Of a stretch of DNA of 64,000 bases, positions 14,437-27,355 are shown one piece after another. The stretch's first letter is position 1. The number at the start of each line of letters is the position of its first letter. The notes beneath the pieces were generated by a model. The model was not told the DNA's origin. It did no database searches and worked only from the letters and a program-made list of their open reading frames with translations. Origin of the DNA: a virus. Made by a program: the position numbers and the translations under genes. The stretch is from the IMG/VR virus record IMGVR_UViG_3300035698_026680, positions 38,500-102,499 of that record. One strand, written 5' to 3'.

Positions 14437-15618
14437 ATGAAAGTAATAAACAAAAAAAACTATAAAGTACCAGTTTTTAATTGGTGTCCAGAAATTGAAG
14501 ATGGTGCTATGGCTCAAATAGACAACTTGGCACAATTGCCATTTGTATTTAAAAGAATTTCAATAATGAGTGACTGCCATCAAGGGTACGGGATGCCTAT
14601 TGGTGGAGTTATGGCCGCCGAAGGCGTAATAGTTCCAAATGCTGTCGGTGTCGATATTGGTTGCGGAATGTGTGCGGTCAAAAGCAATTTGCGAGCAATT
14701 GATACCGATTTGCTTAAAAAGATAATGGGGGAGATTAGGAAAGTAATTCCTTTGGGATTTAATAAGCATGATAAAGAACAAGATATCAAATTAATGCCCG
14801 ACAATGAAGAATTAAAGCTAATAGTTTATCAAGAGTATAACAACGCCCTAAAATCTCTCGGCTCTCTCGGTGGTGGTAACCACTTTATCGAAATCCAAAA
14901 AGGCGACGATGGTCATATTTGGATTATGATTCATTCTGGAAGTAGAAACTTGGGGTTCAAGGTAGCCCAACACTACAACAAACTGGCGGTTGAATTAAAC
15001 GAAAAATGGAAAAGCGAAGTTCCTAAGAGTTGGGGGTTAGCTTTTTTACCAGTGGATTCTCAGGAAGGTCAAGACTACATAAAAGAAATGCAATACTGTG
15101 TTGACTTTGCTTTGGCCAATCGCAAGTTGATGATGGAAAGAGTGAAGGGAATTGTTGCTAAGGTTATTCAGGAAAGTTGGATTGATGGAATAATATCTAT
15201 TGGATTCGAGCCAATGATAAATATAGCCCACAACTATGCTTCTTTAGAGAATCACTTTGGGAAGAATGTATGGGTACATAGAAAAGGGGCCACAAAAGCG
15301 ACCAAGGGGTTAGTAGGCATAATTCCTGGCTCACAAGGGACTAAAAGCTATATTGTCGAAGGCTTGGGCAATAAAGAGTCGTTTATGTCTTGTTCTCATG
15401 GAGCGGGTAGAAAAATGAGTCGAAGCCAAGCAAGGAAAGAACTAAGCCTTGTGGAAGAACAATACAAAATGGAAGGTATTGTTCACGGGATCAGAAGCGC
15501 TCAAGACTTAGATGAAGCCCCAGGATCTTATAAAGACATTGGCAAAGTGATGGAAAATCAAAAAGACCTAGTTAAAATTTTAGTTGAGTTAACACCACTA
15601 GCTGTTATTAAAAGTTAA
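14437..15618 (+). CDS. rtcB: RtcB RNA-splicing/repair ligase
   Basis: DCHQGYGMPIG, VGVDIGCG, GGGNHFIE, HSGSR, HNY, HRKGA, SHGAGR, DEAP. Confidence 0.96.
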   Translation: MKVINKKNYKVPVFNWCPEIEDGAMAQIDNLAQLPFVFKRISIMSDCHQGYGMPIGGVMAAEGVIVPNAVGVDIGCGMCAVKSNLRAIDTDLLKKIMGEIRKVIPLGFNKHDKEQDIKLMPDNEELKLIVYQEYNNALKSLGSLGGGNHFIEIQKGDDGHIWIMIHSGSRNLGFKVAQHYNKLAVELNEKWKSEVPKSWGLAFLPVDSQEGQDYIKEMQYCVDFALANRKLMMERVKGIVAKVIQESWIDGIISIGFEPMINIAHNYASLENHFGKNVWVHRKGATKATKGLVGIIPGSQGTKSYIVEGLGNKESFMSCSHGAGRKMSRSQARKELSLVEEQYKMEGIVHGIRSAQDLDEAPGSYKDIGKVMENQKDLVKILVELTPLAVIKS

Positions 15619-19567: not shown

Positions 19568-19834
19568 GTGATAGTTATGGTGTTTTTAGCAAGCGGAAAT
19601 GGTCCTGGCAGTAAAGTTGGACCTATTGTGGTGGTAGAAGAAACTCCAACAGCGGTTCCAACAGAAACCCTTGAAGTTAAGCCTACAGAAATTGCTACCG
19701 AATCAGCTCAATCAACTCCATTACCTACCCCAACTCCCGAAGACGGTGGTCTTGGCGTTGTTGGTTGGTGTCTTTTAGGAATAGTCGGATTGTTCGTTTT
19801 GGTTTTAGGTGCGAAAGCAGTTTTTAAGAAATAA
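19568..19834 (+). CDS. Small membrane protein with P/T-rich linker
   Basis: TPTAVPT/PTPTP linker and a C-terminal transmembrane helix. Confidence 0.6.
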   Translation: MIVMVFLASGNGPGSKVGPIVVVEETPTAVPTETLEVKPTEIATESAQSTPLPTPTPEDGGLGVVGWCLLGIVGLFVLVLGAKAVFKK

Positions 19835-20142
19835 TGGAGAAGTGGCAAAAAAAGGAAAAGGATGATGCTAAATCTTTTGGTGGTAAAAGAACTCCCAAAA
19901 GCGGTGGTTATTGGTCTTTCCCTGGAGATGTAACCACCAAGCATTTCCTTATTGATAGTAAAACTACAGAAAAAAAAGGCTTTAGAGTTACAGAAAGCAT
20001 GTGGAAAAAGATCTACTATGAAGCCCTAAAAGCAAGAAAGCTACCAGTTCTTTCAATTTCACTTATCAATGAGGATATCGAACTGGTAGTTCTTGATAAG
20101 AACGATTTTATTTCTTTTCTTAAAGATGATAGGATGAAATAG
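19834..20142 (+). CDS. Holliday-junction resolvase-like PD-(D/E)XK protein
   Basis: GGKRTPKSGG ... PGDV ... IDSKTT. Confidence 0.65.
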   Translation: MEKWQKKEKDDAKSFGGKRTPKSGGYWSFPGDVTTKHFLIDSKTTEKKGFRVTESMWKKIYYEALKARKLPVLSISLINEDIELVVLDKNDFISFLKDDRMK

Positions 20143-21125
20143 ATATGAAAAACAATGTACTCACTAACAATTTTGATTTAGTTATTTATAGTAAAGAATA
20201 TCCCCAAGTCCCTGAAGGCTCACTAATTCCTAAAGTTAAAAACTCTCCTGTAATTTCCGATGATGTGCTAAAATAAGCGACTATAATGCTTATTCTTCTT
20301 GCAGGAATAGGAGTGTCAATCTTGTTTGTGATAGTCTTTATTTTTCTCTTTAAAGGAGAGCAAAGATTCCCGCCACAAGAAAAATAGAAGACTTGAGTAA
20401 AAGAATACTTTGCTGTACTATGTTCCTATAGTTATAGAAAGGAGATATAGTGAGACTTTATCAATACGACGATATTAAAAAACTCAATCAAGCACTAGGA
20501 AGTTTTAAAAGAAATACACTCAAAGTAATTGATGTTAAAATCATAACAGTCGAAGGTAAGAATCAATTTTTCGTAGTGGCAGATCCGCCTTACGACTCAA
20601 AACCAAAGAAAAAGAAGGCCGAAAAGGAAAAGGTAGAGAAAAAAGTAGAAGTAAAAGAGCCCGCTAAGAAGAAAACGGAGAAAAAATGAAAGAAATTAAA
20701 TATGTAGAATGTCAGGGTTGCGGACAAATTCATTACATTGTCGGTAAAAAAGAAGCAGAAACTTTGAAGAAAAAGGGTTATAAAGCAGACGGATTTTCCG
20801 ATAGAAATATGCAGCACTGTTCAAACTGTGGTTCAAAAAAGCAATTCTCAGGAGTAACTCAATCTTATGCGAATCAATATTCGCCAGGTGGAGAAATTCA
20901 CCCGATTCTCTTAACCGATGAGAAGCTTAAAGAACCAAAAGTCAAACCTTAGCGAGTTTCTGGAAGAAATGGCACAATTAGAAGGACTCTTGAAGTCTTC
21001 TATTAAAGTGTCATTAAAAAGAAACATTGAGTGGTATTGTAGTAATAGGATTAAACGATACTACAGACAGTACCGAAAGAATCGTGGTGAAAGCTAGACA
21101 GATAGTGTATAATAAAAAACAATAA

Positions 21126-21193
21126 AGGTCGGGCGCTGGGCGCAAGAAGCACTCCAAACGCTTCTCCGCCGGGTTCAATCCCTGGACGGCCTG
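21126..21193 (+). tRNA. tRNA-Trp(CCA), atypical with a truncated D-arm
   Basis: Anticodon loop CT-CCA-AA; T-arm CCGGG-TTCAATC-CCTGG; acceptor AGGTCG/CGGCCT. Confidence 0.7.
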
Positions 21194-21248
21194 CAAAAAC
21201 TTAACGGGCAACTATTGAGAAGTGTGAGAGCAGGCCACTTCTCAAAAA

Positions 21249-21319
21249 GCGGGGTTAGTTGATTGGCTCAACGAGTCCCTTCCAAGGATTAAAAGCGAGT
21301 TCGATTCTCGCATCCCGCT
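21249..21319 (+). tRNA. tRNA-Gly(TCC)
   Basis: Cloverleaf; AGTCC-CT-TCC-AA-GGATT; U73. Confidence 0.9.
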
Positions 21320-21369
21320 CTATGAGTATTAAAGGAGAGTTTTACCATCGAAGCACAATCACCAAACAT

Positions 21370-21442
21370 GGTGTCGGTAGCTTAGTGGTTGAAGCGCTGG
21401 CCTGTGAAGCCAGAGACGGGAGTTCGATTCTCCTTCGATACC
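21370..21442 (+). tRNA. tRNA-His(GTG)
   Basis: Cloverleaf; encoded G-1:C73; CTGGC-CT-GTG-AA-GCCAG. Confidence 0.92.
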
Positions 21443-21489
21443 CAAGTAGCACTTTAAATCAACAGAATTAATTACATTAAATCGGATAT

Positions 21490-21560
21490 TCCGAGATAGT
21501 GTAATGGCAGCACGGCTGGCCTTGGACCAGCTAATGTAGGTTCGACTCCTACTCTCGGAA
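21490..21560 (+). tRNA. tRNA-Gln(TTG)
   Basis: Cloverleaf; U1-A72; GCTGG-CC-TTG-GA-CCAGC (C33). Confidence 0.88.
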
Positions 21561-21569
21561 CACAGAAAA

Positions 21570-21640
21570 TGGCGTGTAGTATAACGGCAACACGCTCGGC
21601 TGTTAACCGAGAAATCTGGGTTCGATTCCCAGCGTGCCAG
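21570..21640 (+). tRNA. tRNA-Asn(GTT)
   Basis: Cloverleaf; CTCGG-CT-GTT-AA-CCGAG. Confidence 0.9.
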
Positions 21641-21645
21641 CAAAT

Positions 21646-21822
21646 GCGGCGATGGTGTAGTGGTAGCACATCCTTTATCGAGCAACACCCTGGGACAAGC
21701 TCCCCAGTTCGGTACCGCTCACAATATAAATTCACTAGGTTTAAAGGTCTAGAGTTTTCTCGAGAACCTTTAAGCGGATGAAGTTACAATGGAAGACAAG
21801 GGTTCGAATCCCTTTCGCCGCT
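21646..21822 (+). ncRNA. tRNA-like RNA with a ~113-nt structured insert in place of the anticodon loop
   Basis: Perfect acceptor GCGGCGA/TCGCCGC plus U73; D-arm GTGT-AGTGGTA-GCAC; T-arm AAGGG-TTCGAAT-CCCTT; anticodon-stem halves separated by 21676-21788. Confidence 0.8.
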
Positions 21823-21828
21823 CAAAAT

Positions 21829-21901
21829 GGGCTTGTAGCTCAGTCGGAAGAGCATTCGCTTTGCAAGCGAAAGGCCGAGAGTTCGATTCTCTCCAGGTCC
21901 A
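21829..21901 (+). tRNA. tRNA-Ala(TGC)
   Basis: Cloverleaf; G3-U70; TTCGC-TT-TGC-AA-GCGAA. Confidence 0.93.
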
Positions 21902-21906
21902 CATAT

Positions 21907-21980
21907 CAGGGATTGGCGGAGTTGGCCACCGCGCTCGGTTTGGAACCGAGAGATCATAGGTTCGAATCCTGTATCCCTGA
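21907..21980 (+). tRNA. tRNA-Pro(TGG)
   Basis: Cloverleaf; C1-G72; CTCGG-TT-TGG-AA-CCGAG. Confidence 0.9.
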
Positions 21981-21985
21981 CTAAA

Positions 21986-22056
21986 GGCTTGTTGATTTAA
22001 TGGTAGAATGTCGTCTTGTCAAGGCGATTGCAGGAGTTCGATTCTCCTACAGGCCG
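21986..22056 (+). tRNA. tRNA-Asp(GTC)
   Basis: Cloverleaf; TCGTC-TT-GTC-AA-GGCGA; G73. Confidence 0.88.
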
Positions 22057-22088
22057 CTAAGTAATGAGTATTAGGAAAAGGAGAAGAA

Positions 22089-22421
22089 ATGGGCAAAGCA
22101 TGGAAAGATTTAGAAAGAACTGCCGCTAAAATTCTTGGTGGCAAAAGAATAATCAGAGAACATTTTGGCGTTAAAAAGCCGGATGTAAAACTAAAAGACT
22201 TCCCTAACTTCAAGATTGATACTAAACGCTATAAAAAGTTTAGAGTTTTTTCTTTATACGAAGAAGTCAAAAAGAGATATTGCAAAAAGCCTGTAGATCA
22301 GGTTATTCTTGTTTTAAGACAACACAATAAACAAACCAAATTAGCAGTCATAGACTTAAATCTATTGGCAAAGCTTATTAATTTTGTAAGAGAAAAGGAA
22401 GGTCAAAATGGTTTTCGTTAA
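22089..22421 (+). CDS. Holliday-junction resolvase-like PD-(D/E)XK protein
   Basis: WKDLERTAAKILGGKR ... PDV ... IDTKR. Confidence 0.55.
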   Translation: MGKAWKDLERTAAKILGGKRIIREHFGVKKPDVKLKDFPNFKIDTKRYKKFRVFSLYEEVKKRYCKKPVDQVILVLRQHNKQTKLAVIDLNLLAKLINFVREKEGQNGFR

Positions 22422-22908
22422 AAATTTACTTTCTAGATTTCGAAAGGATAAAATGAGAGATAAAAGATATTTCTTAAATGCGGAAATAAAGTTTGATTCC
22501 GCTCATCGTTTGTCTAATTATAAGGGAAAATGTAGCAATCTTCATGGTCATACTTACCGGGTCATAATCACTGTTAGTTCAAACAAATTGAATAATTGGG
22601 GAGCCGTAATGGATTTTGGTAAATTAAAGCATCTTCTAAAAGAGAAGGTTGATGAAAAATACGACCATAAAACGATTCTCTATATCGGAGATAAAGAAAA
22701 CCAAGTTATTGGCAATGTCTTAACAGAAGATGCTATTGCTTGGATGAACAGCAATCCAACTGCCGAAAATATGGCAAGAGAGATTTTTCAAGACTTAGTT
22801 CCAAGCATAAAGGCAGAAAGAAAAAATATTAAATTAGAAGTAGTGGCAGTTTACGAAACAGAGACAAATGTTGCCCGCTATTCAGAAGACTATGAAAAAA
22901 ACAAATAA
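22408..22908 (+). CDS. queD: 6-carboxytetrahydropterin synthase
   Basis: FDSAHRL ... CSNLHGHTY ... MDFG ... DH ... NPTAENMA ... VYETE. Confidence 0.95.
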   Translation: MVFVKNLLSRFRKDKMRDKRYFLNAEIKFDSAHRLSNYKGKCSNLHGHTYRVIITVSSNKLNNWGAVMDFGKLKHLLKEKVDEKYDHKTILYIGDKENQVIGNVLTEDAIAWMNSNPTAENMAREIFQDLVPSIKAERKNIKLEVVAVYETETNVARYSEDYEKNK

Positions 22909-23599
22909 AAAACTTCTAGTAAGTAAAGATGGTGTTTTCTTCTCTTTACAAGGAGAAGGCCCGACAATGGGAAAGCCCGCTATTTTTTTGAGACTTCAAT
23001 TATGCAATCTTCATTGTGCATGGTGCGATACTAAACACACCTGGAATTCGCAAGATGGCGAGTCTTGGAGTATCACTAAAACAGTAATAAAGCTAGGCAG
23101 ATACATGGATAGCGAGCGCTATCGTTATCAGCGTATTGTTATTACAGGCGGCGAGCCACTTCTTCAATCAGATGCGATAGATGAGCTTTTAGGCCAATTT
23201 TGCTATCCACATAGAGTAGAGATTGAAACAAACGGAACAATTAGTCCAAGTCAGGCGATGATTAGTGATGGAGTTAGATTTAATGTTTCTCCAAAATTAG
23301 AAAATTCTGGCAACCTAAAGGAATCAAGATACGCACCTGCAATTCTTCAAGTATTTAATGAAGTGAAAAAGACGAGTTTTAAATTTGTTGTTACTGGACC
23401 AAAAGACATTGCTGAAATTGAAAGAATAGTTAGAGAATGCGATTTGGATTCTGAAAAGATTATTTTAATGCCCGAAGGCAGAAGCCAAGAAGCCATTTCT
23501 AAGCATGGAAAAGCAGTCGCTGAAATATGCAAAGAAAAAGGCTGGCAGTTAATTCCGAGATTACAAGTTATGCTTTGGGGAGACGAAAGGAAAAAATGA
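22892..23599 (+). CDS. queE: 7-carboxy-7-deazaguanine synthase (radical SAM)
   Basis: SLQGEG, CNLHCAWCDT, TGGEP, IETNGT, SPKL. Confidence 0.95.
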   Translation: MKKTNKKLLVSKDGVFFSLQGEGPTMGKPAIFLRLQLCNLHCAWCDTKHTWNSQDGESWSITKTVIKLGRYMDSERYRYQRIVITGGEPLLQSDAIDELLGQFCYPHRVEIETNGTISPSQAMISDGVRFNVSPKLENSGNLKESRYAPAILQVFNEVKKTSFKFVVTGPKDIAEIERIVRECDLDSEKIILMPEGRSQEAISKHGKAVAEICKEKGWQLIPRLQVMLWGDERKK

Positions 23600-24426
23600 A
23601 AAGAGCAATAGCAGTAATTGGATATACAGGTATGGTTGGCAACCCTACTTATAGATGGTTGCATAAGCAAGGACACGAAGTAATGGGAATGGCTCTTGAA
23701 AGCAAAACGCATAGTTGGGACGAGATTAATGCTCGTGCTGAATACATTATTGTCGCAGTCCCGACTCCTTTTGATTGGAAAACAAAAAAATATAAATTAG
23801 ATATTCTTGAAGAAGTTTTGGAAAAGATAGGCAAAAACAAGAAGGTAATTATTAAGTCAACTATTGTACCAGGAACAACCGACAGACTTCAGGCGAAATA
23901 CCCAGAAATGTTCCTTTTCTTTAACCCAGAGTTTTTAAGTGTAAAAACTGCATGGGAAGACTTTGTTAATCCCGATAGACAGATAATTGGACACACACAA
24001 AAGAGTTATAAATACGCCCAAGATGCTTTAAGTCTACTACCCCAAAGTCCATTTGATGTAATTATGAGAGCTAGTGAAGCTGAAATTTGTAAGTATGTCA
24101 ATAATTTCCACGGAGCATTAATGGTAATGTTTACTAATTTATTCTACGATATTTCTCAAAAAATTGGAGCACAATATGAAATGGTTAAAAAAGGAAGCCT
24201 TGCTTCTAAATGGGTAGGATCACCAATGGGAAGAATGTATTGGGACGTGTTTCACAAAGGCAAAAGGGGCTATGGGGGTGGATGTTTCCCTAAAGATATT
24301 AACAGTCTAATTCAGTGGTGTAAAGAAAACAAAATTGATGCTGAAATTCTTGAAGCCACTAAAAAAGCCAATATGCGTATATTAAAAACTCAGGGCTTGA
24401 CTGAAGAAGCCGCGGAGAAAAAATGA
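23596..24426 (+). CDS. UDP-glucose/GDP-mannose dehydrogenase family protein (short form)
   Basis: GYTGMVG, VPTP, KSTIVPGTT, NPEFL, GYGGGCFPKD. Confidence 0.88.
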   Translation: MKRAIAVIGYTGMVGNPTYRWLHKQGHEVMGMALESKTHSWDEINARAEYIIVAVPTPFDWKTKKYKLDILEEVLEKIGKNKKVIIKSTIVPGTTDRLQAKYPEMFLFFNPEFLSVKTAWEDFVNPDRQIIGHTQKSYKYAQDALSLLPQSPFDVIMRASEAEICKYVNNFHGALMVMFTNLFYDISQKIGAQYEMVKKGSLASKWVGSPMGRMYWDVFHKGKRGYGGGCFPKDINSLIQWCKENKIDAEILEATKKANMRILKTQGLTEEAAEKK

Positions 24427-24575
24427 AAGAACTATTTTTATCAACTTTAACAGGAAGTGTTTGCGGATTTATTTTTAGCAAACTAGGACTTCCTATTCCT
24501 GCCCCTGGCGTATTAGCAGGGATCATGGGAATTATAGGAATCTTTCTAGGTTATAAACTTGCAGGATTAATATGA
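24423..24575 (+). CDS. XapX/DUF1427-like small membrane protein (50 aa, absent from the ORF track)
   Basis: MKELFLSTLTGSVCGFIFSKLGLPIPAPGVLAGIMGIIGIFLGYKLAGLI; ATGA-coupled to both neighbours. Confidence 0.75.
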   Translation: MKELFLSTLTGSVCGFIFSKLGLPIPAPGVLAGIMGIIGIFLGYKLAGLI

Positions 24576-25240
24576 AAACCAAAAAAACAATTTTAGTTAT
24601 GTCGGGCGGAATTGATTCTTCAACTCTTGCCTATTACCTAAAAGACAAGGGACATGAAGTTAAAGCCCTAACTTTTAACTATGGCCAAAAACATGATAAT
24701 GAAATAGATGCTGCGGCTAAAATTTGCGTAGAAGCAGAAATTCCCTGGAAACTCGTTGATATTTCTGCGGTGAAATATCTTCTTGATTCAGCTTTAACCA
24801 ACGATAAAAGAAAAATTCCCGAAGGCCATTATGCTGATAAAAACATGGAATCAACGGTTGTTCCAAACAGAAATATGATTATGCTATCAATCGCTGCGGG
24901 CTATGCCAAGTCGATTGGGTTTGATTATATTGCTTTTGCTGCTCATGGTGGTGACCATTTTATCTATCCTGATTGTCGCCCTGGATTTGTTGATATACTT
25001 ACTGCCGCCATTAGGTCTGCTTTTGGACACTCAGACGATGCCCCTAAATTAATCGCTCCCTTTGTCGATTTCGACAAAACAGATATTGTTAGAATGGGCC
25101 ACATGTTAAAAGTCCCTTTTAAAATTACTTGGTCTTGTTATAAAGGAAGGGTAAAGCACTGCGGCAAATGTGGGACTTGCGTTGAGCGCAAAGAAGCGTT
25201 CAAGCTCGCTAAAGTGTCTGATCCAACAAAATATGAATAA
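24572..25240 (+). CDS. queC: 7-cyano-7-deazaguanine synthase
   Basis: SGGIDS, YGQKH, VPNRN, YPDCR, TWSCY ... CGKCGTC. Confidence 0.96.
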   Translation: MKTKKTILVMSGGIDSSTLAYYLKDKGHEVKALTFNYGQKHDNEIDAAAKICVEAEIPWKLVDISAVKYLLDSALTNDKRKIPEGHYADKNMESTVVPNRNMIMLSIAAGYAKSIGFDYIAFAAHGGDHFIYPDCRPGFVDILTAAIRSAFGHSDDAPKLIAPFVDFDKTDIVRMGHMLKVPFKITWSCYKGRVKHCGKCGTCVERKEAFKLAKVSDPTKYE

Positions 25241-25270
25241 ATATTACTATCCATGGGAGATTAACGAAAA

Positions 25271-25882
25271 ATGAGCTTACAAAGCGGATCAACCAAACCA
25301 TCTAAAAACAAAATTAATAGCGTAAAGCTTTTTAAAGCGGCAGAGATGCTTCTAGATGCAATAGAAGGGCCAAACAGGAGAGAAGGAACGGAAAGAACAC
25401 CAGAAAGAATAGCCCGTGATTGGCCAGAGATTTTTGAAGGCTATAATTACAAAGCAAAAGATGTTCTTAATAGGACATTTCAGGCAGAGCGCTATGATGA
25501 AATGATTATCGTGAGTACTGATTTTACTAGCACTTGCGAACACCATATATTGCCATTTAAAGGTAAAGCCTGGATAGGCTATATTCCCAAAAAGAAGATC
25601 GTAGGGCTAGACAAGTTGATTAAACTTGTTTGGATGTTCTCTAAAAGACTTCAAAATCAAGAAAGAATTACTCGCCAAGTAGCAGAATCGGTTGATAAGG
25701 TTCTAAAACCCAAAGGAGTTATGGTCGTACTAAAAGCTACGCATGACTGTGTTTCACTAAGGGGAACAAAGTCAATAAATAGCATTACGACAACTTCTGC
25801 TTGCTTCGGAGCGTTTAGAAAGAAAATCGCGGCAAGAAATGAATTTTTAAGCCTTATTAAAACAGACTTCGACAAAAAATGA
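25271..25882 (+). CDS. folE: GTP cyclohydrolase I
   Basis: TPER, CEHHILPF, RLQNQERIT, HDCVSLRG. Confidence 0.95.
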   Translation: MSLQSGSTKPSKNKINSVKLFKAAEMLLDAIEGPNRREGTERTPERIARDWPEIFEGYNYKAKDVLNRTFQAERYDEMIIVSTDFTSTCEHHILPFKGKAWIGYIPKKKIVGLDKLIKLVWMFSKRLQNQERITRQVAESVDKVLKPKGVMVVLKATHDCVSLRGTKSINSITTTSACFGAFRKKIAARNEFLSLIKTDFDKK

Positions 25883-26694
25883 GATTATATTTCGCAGGAT
25901 ACAGTCCTTACTGGAGAGAAGCCAAGAAAGCGAAGATTGAAAACCTGCTTGAGTCTTATTTGAAGTTTAGAAGGGGATCTGGAAAGAGTGGGTTTATCCA
26001 ATGGCATAAAAGAAAGGGTTTGCTAGGAAAGAAGATTTTTATAGACTCTGGAGCCTTCTCAGCGTGGACTAGGGGCGTTTCAATCGACATTGATAAGTAT
26101 GCGGCCTTTATTAAAAAGCATCTTTCTCACATAGAAGTTTACGCCAATCTTGATGTTATTGGAGATGCAAAGGCAACCGCTAAAAACCAGGCTTACTTAG
26201 AAAGCAAAGGACTCAAACCCTTAGCCACTTTTCACATTGGCTCTCTCTATTCCGAGTTAGAGAAAATGGTTAAGCAATACGAATATCTTGCCCTGGGCGG
26301 CCTAGTTGGTGTTACTCAAAAAAGAAGAATAAAGCATTTGGATAAATGTTTTAGGATTATCCGCTTGAATGCCAAGGTTCATGGTTTTGGCATTGGTGAC
26401 TTAAAATTATTGCTGCGCTACCCTTTTTATTCAGTTGATAATACAAACTGGATACTTGGCGGAAGAATAGGGGCAGTCTATAAATTCGATAAAAAAAATC
26501 TTAAACTACAAAGCACATTCTATAAAGATAAGCGGATTCTTGATAGAATAAGAAAAGTAGATGTCTACAAGTTTTTTGAACACAAAAGCGTAGCACATAA
26601 AAATCGCTGTTTTGAAAATGCAGTAATATTTAAAGAATTAGAGTCTTTTGTAACCCGTGTTTGGGAAGCAAGGGGCGTGAAATGGAGTAATTAA
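25879..26694 (+). CDS. DpdA/TGT-like 7-deazaguanine transglycosylase
   Basis: IDSGAFS, LDVIGD, ALGGLV, VHGFG and SVD TGT-fold motifs; no CxCxxC zinc site; follows the preQ0 genes. Confidence 0.75.
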   Translation: MRLYFAGYSPYWREAKKAKIENLLESYLKFRRGSGKSGFIQWHKRKGLLGKKIFIDSGAFSAWTRGVSIDIDKYAAFIKKHLSHIEVYANLDVIGDAKATAKNQAYLESKGLKPLATFHIGSLYSELEKMVKQYEYLALGGLVGVTQKRRIKHLDKCFRIIRLNAKVHGFGIGDLKLLLRYPFYSVDNTNWILGGRIGAVYKFDKKNLKLQSTFYKDKRILDRIRKVDVYKFFEHKSVAHKNRCFENAVIFKELESFVTRVWEARGVKWSN

Positions 26695-26695
26695 T

Positions 26696-27355
26696 ATGCC
26701 TAAAAAATATCAGCACCAGATAAAGCTTATTAAAGTAAGCGAGATTCGACTCAATAAATATAATCCAAATGTCATGGATGTTGAGTTGAAAGACCAGTTA
26801 AAAAGAAGAATCGCACAAGAAGGAATGCTTCAACCCATTCTTTTAAGAAAAATTAAGCCTGAGAAGGAAGTTAAATACGAAGTGGTTGATGGCGAACACC
26901 GCTTTCTTGCTACTAAAGAAAATGAATATGAAGAAATTTTAGCACTTGTTCTTGATAAAAGTCTTCCTGAAGCAATGATCTCGACAATTAACATGAATAA
27001 GATTAAAGGCGAGTTCGACACCTTAAAGCTCGCTGGGGTAATTCACGAGCTTCATAAAACCTATTCAATGGAAGAATTGGAAGAAAAACTCGGATATAGT
27101 CCTGAGCAAATGGAAGGAATGGAAAAGCTGTTAACTTATGATTTTGATTCACTTAGCAATGAAGGAATTGATGGCCTAGATAAAACTGCTCCTGAAGAAT
27201 ACGAATTCAAAATAATGTTGACTGCAAAACAAAACGATATTATCAATAAAGCAATCGAAGCGACAGGCAAAGAAGGAATCCCCGATGCTTTGGTTAAAAT
27301 TTCTTTAGAATATCTAGCTAAACATGGCACAAAATCAAATAAAGGACGAACTTAA
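26696..27355 (+). CDS. ParB/Srx-domain protein
   Basis: YNPN ... GMLQPILL ... VVDGEHR. Confidence 0.85.
   Translation: MPKKYQHQIKLIKVSEIRLNKYNPNVMDVELKDQLKRRIAQEGMLQPILLRKIKPEKEVKYEVVDGEHRFLATKENEYEEILALVLDKSLPEAMISTINMNKIKGEFDTLKLAGVIHELHKTYSMEELEEKLGYSPEQMEGMEKLLTYDFDSLSNEGIDGLDKTAPEEYEFKIMLTAKQNDIINKAIEATGKEGIPDALVKISLEYLAKHGTKSNKGRT

What the first reader, a model, noticed from the sequence alone, without database searches (positions are those of the whole stretch)
21646..21822. tRNA-like RNA whose anticodon loop is replaced by a structured 113-nt domain
Seen: intact acceptor, D and T arms with Gly-like identity (G1-C72, C2-G71, G3-C70, U73), in the middle of the tRNA array. Between the anticodon-stem halves TCCTT (21671-75) and ATGGA (21789-93) lie 113 nt forming two hairpins: GAGC..CTGGG/CCCAG..GCTC and TTCA..TTAAAGGT/ACCTTTAA..TGAA. 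I found no excision point that restores a canonical U33/purine-37 loop. The insert is too short for a typical group I/II intron, and one frame is open across it until TGA at 21779-81. Inference: it may be an intron-containing tRNA joined by the phage RtcB, a miniature tmRNA-like molecule charged with Gly instead of Ala, or a tRNA-scaffolded decoy/ncRNA.
Basis: partly seen in the sequence, partly recalled or inferred. Interest (0 to 1): 0.85.

Follow-up and report, generated by a model that had tools for sequence, protein, structure and literature searches.

The report
Phage tRNA-shaped RNA with big insert
Inside a phage's row of tRNA genes sits one gene with an intact tRNA body whose codon-reading loop is interrupted by about 104-113 well-folded extra bases; it resembles the long-known but still unexplained tRNA-like stable RNAs of phages T5 and T4, has no relative in any database I could reach, and whether the insert is ever cut out is untested.

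Summary
Window 21646-21822 (+) has a perfect 7-bp acceptor stem, a D arm, a T arm and U73. The anticodon arm is interrupted by a strongly folded two-hairpin insert (z = -4.3).

One sub-claim is wrong. Shifting the anticodon stem by one base (CCTTT/AATGG) and removing 104 nt restores a 7-nt loop with U33 and a purine at 37. ARAGORN then scores it 115.8, inside this phage's range for real tRNAs.

The possible spliced products are incoherent:
- The anticodon would be CGA, CGU, CUU or GUU on a Gly-like class I body.
- The stem carries a U.U mismatch.
- UCG and ACG are the phage's rarest codons.

The phage already covers all 20 amino acids, counting a sub-threshold tRNA-Trp at 21126-21194.

The insert matches no known removable or tRNA-related class: not a group I/II intron, not a bulge-helix-bulge (BHB) intron, not a small ribozyme, tmRNA or Y RNA, and it has no mini-tRNA like the Lak-phage introns. 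The phage has RtcB but no EndA or Ro.

No homolog exists in any searched collection. The nearest relatives hold only tRNA-Pro at this spot.

Best reading (0.42): an unspliced tRNA-shaped stable RNA like T5 RNA1 or T4 RNAC. Rivals are a protein-spliced intron sealed by RtcB, and a disrupted gene. This scan has noted similar tRNA-scaffold RNAs on other phage DNA.

The parts
21646..21822 (+). Whole tRNA-shaped gene (177 nt, no encoded CCA)
   Evidence: Sequence. ARAGORN -i calls 21646-21823. Frame scan finds it, with 0 frames in 30 shuffles.
21646..21652 (+). Acceptor stem 5' strand GCGGCGA. It pairs 7 of 7 with 21815-21821.
   Evidence: Pair probability 0.84-1.0.
21655..21669 (+). D arm: stem GTGT/GCAC, loop AGTGGTA with G18 G19
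21671..21676 (+). 5' strand of the weak anticodon stem, TCCTTT. It pairs with 21788-21793 with a central T.T mismatch.
   Evidence: Pair probability about 0.01.
21684..21787 (+). 104-nt 'intron' as placed by ARAGORN (between positions 38 and 39). Equivalent registers exist from 21679/21783 to 21685/21790. CAA is repeated at both borders.
21680..21720 (+). Hairpin 1: GAGC/GCTC closing stem, ACC/GGT, CTGGG/CCCAG, 8-nt loop ACAAGCTC
   Evidence: Pair probability 0.83-0.99.
21721..21738 (+). 18-nt A/U-rich single-stranded linker
   Evidence: Unpaired in the full-element minimum-energy fold and centroid. Partly paired in the fold of the insert alone.
21739..21775 (+). Hairpin 2: 15-bp near-perfect stem with a TTTT loop
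   Evidence: Pair probability 0.5-1.0.
21673..21679 (+). CTTTATC: 5' strand of the alternative 7-bp helix with 21777-21783 (GATGAAG). This helix competes with the anticodon stem.
   Evidence: Minimum-energy fold. Constrained folds -58.0 against -54.8 kcal/mol.
21777..21783 (+). GATGAAG: 3' strand of the alternative helix
21788..21793 (+). 3' strand of the weak anticodon stem, AATGGA
21798..21814 (+). T arm AAGGG-TTCGAAT-CCCTT
   Evidence: Rfam tmRNA/tRNA partial matches.
21815..21822 (+). Acceptor 3' strand TCGCCGC plus discriminator T73
21126..22057 (+). The tRNA array that holds the element: Trp-like, Gly, His, Gln, Asn, X, Ala, Pro, Asp
14437..15618 (+). Phage RtcB RNA ligase gene (context only; no link to the element is shown)
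   Evidence: phrog_1075, E = 2.3e-118.

Best explanation
The element is a tRNA-derived gene that is co-transcribed with the array. It is released like a tRNA: RNase P cuts the 5' end, the 3' end is trimmed, and the host adds CCA. It then persists as a tRNA-shaped RNA of about 180 nt that cannot decode.

Its L-shaped upper body (acceptor, T and D arms, elbow contacts) is kept. The anticodon arm is replaced by a long branched arm: a 7-bp helix stacked on hairpin 1, with an 18-nt single strand and hairpin 2 branching off.

I think it most likely stays unspliced, like phage T5 RNA1 and T4 RNAC. If it has a function, it would act by presenting its insert on a tRNA body, or by occupying a tRNA-binding protein.

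Shown: the anatomy, the folding strength, the lack of any known intron or ribozyme signature, and the analogy with T5 and T4. Inferred: expression, processing, stability, lack of splicing, and any function.
For: The frame is intact and tightly spaced in the array. The insert is strongly structured.

The anticodon stem is weak: 4 pairs plus a U.U mismatch, a 2-nt connector after the D stem in the only register that restores a canonical loop, and pair probability about 0.01. A 7-bp alternative helix is favoured by about 3 kcal/mol.

No cutting mechanism is visible:
- Rfam finds no intron or ribozyme at E <= 10, while the same library finds a 196-nt group I intron in another phage tRNA (L044, 58.8 bits).
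- There is no BHB pairing (my reading of the sequence).
- There is no EndA in the phage.
- The insert has no anticodon-type hairpin (U33/R37), and I see no T-arm hairpin when reading it.

The spliced products would be incoherent. The anticodon would be CGA, CGU, CUU or GUU on a class I, Gly-like body. Serine identity needs the long variable arm and glycine identity needs C35/C36 (PMC9976931). UCG and ACG are the rarest codons, at 4.1 and 5.3 per thousand.

The phage's tRNA set is already complete: 27 tRNAs plus a Trp(cca) candidate.

There is a direct precedent. T5 RNA1 (144 nt) is annotated 'tRNA-like stable RNA with unknown functions' at full length. ARAGORN -i calls it tRNA-Leu(taa) with a 40-nt 'intron', score 110.3, the same kind of call as here at 108.2. 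T4 rnaC has a T arm plus large hairpins and lies in the tRNA cluster, and its role is unknown (PMC3014915, PMC9697503).
Against: No homolog was found, so there is no covariation and no evidence of selection.

A 104-nt excision does give a tRNA that scores as well as the phage's real ones (115.8), and the phage carries RtcB.

The analogy with T5 and T4 is architectural, not homology. Those RNAs have Leu-type bodies and shorter inserts.

The function of the T5 and T4 RNAs is itself unknown, so the analogy explains little about mechanism.
Confidence: 0.42

Rival explanations
1. The gene is an intron-bearing tRNA. The 104-nt insert is a ribozyme-free intron, cut out by a host or phage endoribonuclease that leaves 2',3'-cyclic phosphate and 5'-OH ends. 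The phage RtcB joins the halves into a working 73-74-nt tRNA. The most coherent product is tRNA-Thr(CGU), because G1-C72, C2-G71, G35 and U36 fit threonine identity.
For: ARAGORN -i call. Six spliced variants were built in silico: the five 104-nt excisions score 115.8 and the 105-nt one 113.8, against 105.6-123.1 for the phage's 27 tRNAs. U33 and R37 are restored. RtcB lies at 14437-15618. Ribozyme-free 'enigmatic' introns of similar size (93 nt) are published for Lak megaphage tRNAs (PMC6784885).
Against: - No BHB motif, and no EndA in the phage. The host is bacterial in type, since tRNA-Tyr has a long variable arm.
- No ribozyme or intron family matches.
- The insert lacks the T-arm mini-tRNA that marks the Lak introns.
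- The anticodon stem has a U.U mismatch, needs a 2-nt connector, and is out-competed by another helix.
- The splice register, and so the anticodon, is undefined.
- No intron-less allele was found.
- The candidate codons are rare or already served.
- T5 RNA1 gets the same ARAGORN 'intron' call yet is annotated as a full-length stable RNA.
Confidence: 0.25
2. The gene is a tRNA recently disrupted by insertion of a palindromic piece of DNA. The RNA may still be made and processed, but it has no function and will decay over time.
For: It is an orphan, with no relative in IMG/VR, JGI metagenomes, GTDB genomes or GenBank phages. The nearest relatives (TerL 80% identical) have only tRNA-Pro at the syntenic site. 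There is a 3-nt direct repeat CAA at both borders. The tRNA set is complete without it.
Against: All three tRNA-body stems (acceptor, D, T: 16 of 16 pairs) and the tertiary positions are intact. The insert is far more structured than chance (z = -4.3). There is no second copy of the insert in the genome or elsewhere, as a mobile element would leave. The 'pre-insertion' tRNA (class I body, anticodon CGA with G37, U.U in the stem) is not a sensible tRNA, which argues for long drift rather than a fresh hit.
Confidence: 0.25
3. The RNA is a Y-RNA-like or tmRNA-like molecule: a tRNA mimic that docks on a Ro60-type ring, or a mini tmRNA that enters stalled ribosomes.
For: Weak Rfam YrlA match at 21771-21865 (17.6 bits, E = 0.49). 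In bacteria RtcB operons travel with Ro and Y RNAs (my own knowledge; PMC7824862 notes Ro plus a tRNA-like partner in some phages).
Against: The YrlA match is far below the gathering score of 69 and runs into the neighbouring tRNA-Ala. The phage has no TROVE/Ro gene. The topology is the reverse of YrlA: the ends lie in the acceptor stem. ARAGORN finds no tmRNA. Rfam tmRNA matches only the T arm (12.9 bits against 47). The pair is G3-C70, not G3.U70. A full D arm is present.
Confidence: 0.04

Closest known systems
Phage T5 RNA1 (misc_RNA T5s03, NC_005859 30501-30644, 'tRNA-like stable RNA with unknown functions')
   Same: It lies in a phage tRNA cluster. It has a full tRNA frame (acceptor, D and T arms). 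The anticodon loop is interrupted by a folded insert. ARAGORN with the intron option calls it a tRNA with an 'intron' and gives a normal score (110.3, against 108.2 here). Its function is unknown.
   Different: T5 RNA1 has a class II Leu-type body and a 40-nt insert with one hairpin. Here the body is class I and Gly-like, the insert is 104-113 nt with two hairpins and a linker, and the anticodon stem is weaker. There is no sequence similarity. T5 has no RtcB (my own knowledge, not tested).
Phage T4 RNAC / species 1 RNA (AF158101 70908-71046) and RNAD
   Same: They are small RNAs encoded at the end of the tRNA cluster. RNAC has a T arm (CCGGGTTCGAATCCCGG), paired ends and two large hairpins. 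Their roles are still unknown (PMC3014915, PMC9697503).
   Different: RNAC has no clean D arm and no 7-bp acceptor stem. RNAD shows no tRNA features in my fold (z = -0.8). There is no sequence similarity to the element.
'Enigmatic' introns of Lak megaphage tRNAs (Devoto et al. 2019, PMC6784885)
   Same: They are ribozyme-free inserts of about 90-100 nt in the anticodon loop of phage tRNA genes, found with intron-aware tRNA finders. Their removal mechanism is unknown.
   Different: The Lak introns sit right after the anticodon in tRNAs of clear identity. They contain a T-arm or mini-tRNA motif, and intron-less alleles exist. None of these three holds here.
Group I introns in tRNA anticodon loops (Rfam RF00028), for example the tRNA-Asp of locus L044
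   Same: The position is the same: the anticodon loop of a phage tRNA gene.
   Different: The L044 intron is 196 nt and scores 58.8 bits. This insert is 104-113 nt and gives no match at E <= 10.

Membership tests
Canonical decoding tRNA (Rfam RF00005) | Cloverleaf with a 5-bp anticodon stem and a 7-nt loop, scoring above the family cut-off | tested here: not met
   No Rfam tRNA match at gathering score. Only 15.9 bits on the 3' part, against 29. ARAGORN default makes no call. No hairpin in the element has a U33/R37 7-nt loop apart from the T arm and a shifted reading of the D arm.
Canonical decoding tRNA (Rfam RF00005) | Acceptor, D and T arms and elbow nucleotides | tested here: met
   7 of 7 acceptor pairs, 4 D-stem pairs, 5 of 5 T-stem pairs, TTCGAAT loop, G18 G19, U8, A14, G15/C48.
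Group I intron | P3-P8 catalytic core detectable by RF00028; length of about 190 nt or more | tested here: not met
   No match at E <= 10. The insert is 104-113 nt. Positive control: L044 at 58.8 bits. The size limit is from my own knowledge.
Archaeal/eukaryal protein-spliced tRNA intron | Bulge-helix-bulge motif at the exon-intron borders | tested here: not met
   In either stem register the four loop bases form at most 2 of the 4 central-helix pairs with the intron's 3' end (my reading of the sequence).
Archaeal/eukaryal protein-spliced tRNA intron | Splicing endonuclease EndA available | tested here: not met
   PF01974 is absent from the complete phage genome. The phage's tRNA-Tyr is class II, the bacterial type. 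The host genome is unknown.
Lak-type 'enigmatic' phage tRNA introns | Insert contains a T-arm or mini-tRNA module | tested here: not met
   The only T-loop-like string in the insert, GTTCGGTAC, lacks A58 and flanking complementary stems. The Lak Tyr intron has ggttcgaatcc.
Lak-type 'enigmatic' phage tRNA introns | Intron-less alleles of the same tRNA in related phages | tested here: inconclusive
   No allele of any kind was found. The relatives lack the gene altogether.
tmRNA | tRNA-like domain with G3.U70 and no anticodon arm, plus a tag reading frame; detected by ARAGORN or Rfam | tested here: not met
   ARAGORN -m finds none. RF00023 matches only the T arm, 12.9 bits against 47. The pair is G3-C70.
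YrlA / Y RNA | Rfam RF02553 match and a Ro60 (TROVE) partner gene | tested here: not met
   17.6 bits against 69, running into tRNA-Ala. PF05731 is absent from the phage.
Small self-cleaving ribozymes (hammerhead, twister, pistol, hatchet, HDV) | Match to the Rfam models | tested here: not met
   No such family appears at E <= 10 on 141 nt with the laxest filters. CGGATGA differs from the hammerhead CUGANGA core at an essential base (my reading).
Phage tRNA-like stable RNAs (T5 RNA1, T4 RNAC) | Encoded within a phage tRNA cluster, with a tRNA frame and the decoding loop replaced by a folded insert | tested here: met
   The same architecture and the same ARAGORN behaviour are seen for T5 RNA1.
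Phage tRNA-like stable RNAs (T5 RNA1, T4 RNAC) | Accumulates as a stable, full-length RNA in infected cells | not testable with these tools
Phage tRNA-like stable RNAs (T5 RNA1, T4 RNAC) | Sequence homology to T5 RNA1 or T4 RNAC | tested here: not met
   blastn against GenBank phages found no match for the element. The class is an architectural kind, not a homologous family.

The most novel reading that the evidence does not exclude
The insert is a new, ribozyme-free kind of intron in a bacterial-virus tRNA. A protein endonuclease cuts at the base of the branched arm, and the phage's own RtcB reseals the halves. Bacteria-infecting viruses would then carry out protein-catalysed tRNA splicing of the archaeal/eukaryal chemical type without a BHB motif. 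The weak anticodon stem and the competing helix would act as a switch that keeps the tRNA off until it is spliced.
Probability: 0.15. Interest if true: 0.8.

Novelty: new variant of a known kind. Interest (0 to 1): 0.38.

Why it matters
Phage tRNA clusters have been known for fifty years to hold tRNA-like RNAs of unknown function (T4 RNAC and RNAD, T5 RNA1). Ribozyme-free inserts in phage tRNA genes, as in the Lak phages, remain unexplained.

This element adds a clean example with a different body (class I, Gly-like) and a larger branched insert, in a phage that also carries RtcB. It is a convenient test case for one question: are such inserts spliced by proteins, or are these RNAs tRNA mimics that work unspliced?

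On its own it is an orphan, with no conservation or expression evidence. Its weight is therefore modest.

Tried and rejected
**Homolog searches, all negative**
- blastn of the element against GenBank phages.
- blastn of the whole array: only ordinary tRNAs match. The MD18 hit is tRNA-Ala against tRNA-Thr plus a generic T arm.
- 47 IMG/VR loci around RtcB relatives and 28 of their whole records.
- TerL relatives in IMG/VR and JGI metagenomes: the same two fragments, holding tRNA-Pro only.
- Six IMG/VR pattern scans: D arm to T arm with a gap, 3' half, 5' half, two insert seeds, and the neighbouring tRNA-Ala. All gave nothing or chance hits in coding genes.
- One GTDB pattern scan: 3 hits, one of them a Gly-like tRNA with an 8-nt loop in a Chloroflexi MAG.
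- No other copy of the insert in the phage genome.

**Leads dropped**
- 'Missing tRNA-Trp'. The 27 called tRNAs lack only Trp, but a sub-threshold Trp(cca) gene with A1-U72 and G73 heads the array, and no CCA anticodon can be made from the element.
- Ro/Y RNA. A VWA protein at 1396-2853 looked Ro-like but has no TROVE domain.
- EndA-like role for the two small nucleases beside the array. Both match only phrog_2002, 'Holliday junction resolvase'.
- Antisense targets of the linker. Matches of at most 13 nt in the genome are at chance level.
- Excess of 6-bp palindromes in the insert. I counted 4 by eye against about 1.7 expected, which is not significant.

**Tools unavailable**

Full report
**Setting**

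The window is the right-hand 64 kb of a complete 102.5-kb IMG/VR phage record with direct terminal repeats. The phage has two tRNA arrays. One holds 20 genes on the minus strand and lies outside the window. The other lies at window 21126-22057 on the plus strand.

Around the second array lie:
- RtcB at 14437-15618;
- recombination genes and SSB;
- two small phrog_2002 nucleases;
- a 7-deazaguanine gene set;
- the large terminase.

The phage's tRNA-Tyr has a long variable arm (84 nt), which is the bacterial type.

**The observation**

Reading 21646-21822 confirms the tRNA frame:
- a 7-bp acceptor stem with no mismatch, and U73;
- a D arm with G18 G19;
- a T arm with the TTCGAAT loop;
- the usual elbow and core positions.

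The gene lies 4 nt after tRNA-Asn and 6 nt before tRNA-Ala.

A frame scan of my own asks for a T arm, a 7 of 7 acceptor stem, U8 and a D arm with GG. It finds 23 frames in the genome, of which this is the only one longer than 100 nt. It finds none in 30 shuffled genomes.

They form two hairpins with pair probabilities of 0.83-1.0, joined by an 18-nt A/U-rich strand.

ARAGORN in default mode and Rfam's tRNA model do not call the gene.

With the anticodon stem read one base further in (CCTTT/AATGG), removing 104 nt restores a 7-nt loop with U33 and a purine at 37. ARAGORN's intron mode reports tRNA-Ser(cga) with a 104-nt intron.

My enumeration shows a family of equivalent 104-nt excisions. Depending on the register they give anticodon CGA, CGU, CUU or GUU. 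CAA is repeated at both borders.

I built six spliced forms in silico. The five 104-nt excisions score 115.8 and the 105-nt one 113.8. The phage's 27 real tRNAs score 105.6-123.1.

**Is it an intron?**

I tested every removal mechanism I know of.

- *Group I or II introns and small ribozymes.* No Rfam family matches the insert, even at E <= 10 on a 141-nt stretch. The same library finds a 196-nt group I intron in the tRNA-Asp of another RtcB-carrying phage (L044, 58.8 bits), so the negative result means something.
- *BHB splicing.* The loop bases cannot form the 4-bp central helix with the intron's 3' end. The phage has no EndA, and the host is bacterial in type.
- *Lak-phage 'enigmatic' introns* (PMC6784885). 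These carry a T-arm mini-tRNA, which could recruit RNase P and RNase Z (my inference). This insert has no T-loop hairpin.

The spliced products are also odd:
- The body is class I with Gly-like acceptor features.
- Serine identity depends on the long variable arm, and glycine identity on C35/C36 (PMC9976931).
- The stem keeps a U.U mismatch and needs a 2-nt connector after the D stem.
- UCG and ACG are the phage's rarest codons, while AAG and AAY already have phage tRNAs.

Only tRNA-Thr(CGU) would have a coherent identity set.

In thermodynamic terms, the cloverleaf with the anticodon stem (-54.8 kcal/mol) loses to a 7-bp helix between 21673-79 and 21777-83 (-58.0). The anticodon-stem pairs have probability of about 0.01.

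**Is it the missing tRNA?**

The 27 called tRNAs cover 19 amino acids and lack Trp. At a lower threshold, ARAGORN finds a tRNA-Trp(cca) at 21126-21194. It has A1-U72, G73 and the loop CUCCAAA but a shrunken D arm, and it lies just after an extended -10 box. The set is therefore complete without the element.

**Relatives**

None were found. The searches covered:
- GenBank phages;
- 47 loci and 28 whole records of RtcB-related IMG/VR phages;
- the only TerL relatives (80% identity) in IMG/VR and JGI metagenomes, which are syntenic but hold just tRNA-Pro at this site;
- six IMG/VR pattern scans and one GTDB scan.

No covariation test is therefore possible. Read-level evidence could not be obtained.

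**What it resembles**

Phage T5 RNA1 is annotated as a 144-nt 'tRNA-like stable RNA with unknown functions'. It folds as a Leu-type tRNA whose anticodon loop carries a hairpin insert. ARAGORN's intron mode calls it tRNA-Leu(taa) with a 40-nt intron and a score of 110.3. That is exactly the behaviour seen here, for an RNA recorded as full-length and stable.

T4 RNAC has a T arm, paired ends and two large hairpins, and lies at the end of the tRNA cluster. Its role is still unknown (PMC3014915, PMC9697503).

Earlier notes of this scan report many phage 'tRNA scaffolds with inserts' on other DNA. I used them as leads only.

**Verdict**

The element is a real tRNA-derived gene. My odds:
- 0.42: it is processed like a tRNA and persists unspliced as a tRNA-shaped RNA with a branched arm in place of the anticodon arm. 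This would be a class I, large-insert variant of the T5 RNA1 and T4 RNAC kind.
- 0.25: it is a protein-spliced intron sealed by RtcB.
- 0.25: it is a functionless disrupted gene.
- about 0.04: it is tmRNA-like or Y-RNA-like.
- The remaining 0.04 is left for readings I have not thought of.

A single small-RNA experiment would separate the first three.

Noticed in passing
window 21126-21194 (+): Sub-threshold tRNA-Trp(cca) (ARAGORN 92.3) with A1-U72, G73 and loop CUCCAAA, a good T arm but a shrunken D arm. It heads the array and completes the phage's coverage of all 20 amino acids.
   Followed up: partly
window 21106-21113 (+): Extended -10 box TGTATAAT just upstream of the Trp-like gene. It is the likely promoter of the whole array. 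The simple promoter scan did not list it.
   Followed up: no
G000:C1:25460-25534, 25947-26021, 26123-26198 (minus strand, outside the window): All three tRNA-Leu genes of the phage are only 75-76 nt. They have a Leu-type D arm and A73 but an ordinary 5-nt variable loop instead of the long arm that bacterial tRNA-Leu normally has.
   Followed up: partly
G000:C1:23752-26328 (outside the window): The 20-gene tRNA array lies on the minus strand, while nearly every protein gene of the phage is on the plus strand.
   Followed up: no
L044:19945-20214: The tRNA-Asp(gtc) of another RtcB-encoding IMG/VR phage carries a 196-nt group I intron in the anticodon loop (Rfam RF00028, 58.8 bits).
   Followed up: partly
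L016:17870-18000: In a 183.6-kb RtcB-encoding phage, a 3' tRNA-half look-alike (T arm plus CGGGGGC) lies about 26 nt upstream of a 5' half look-alike (GCCCCCG plus D arm). The order is that of a permuted tRNA gene.
   Followed up: no
L089:2124-2196 (Chloroflexi MAG JABHWQ010000371.1): tRNA-Gly-like gene with the same acceptor stem as the element and an 8-nt anticodon loop, TATTCCAA.
   Followed up: no
window 19834-20142 and 22089-22421 (+): Two small paralogous nucleases (phrog_2002, 'Holliday junction resolvase') lie on either side of the tRNA array.
   Followed up: partly
window 22408-27355 (+): Directly downstream of the array lies a 7-deazaguanine gene set (QueD, QueE, QueC, GTP cyclohydrolase, a queuine tRNA-ribosyltransferase-like gene) followed by a ParB-like nuclease, as in phages that modify their DNA.
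   Followed up: no
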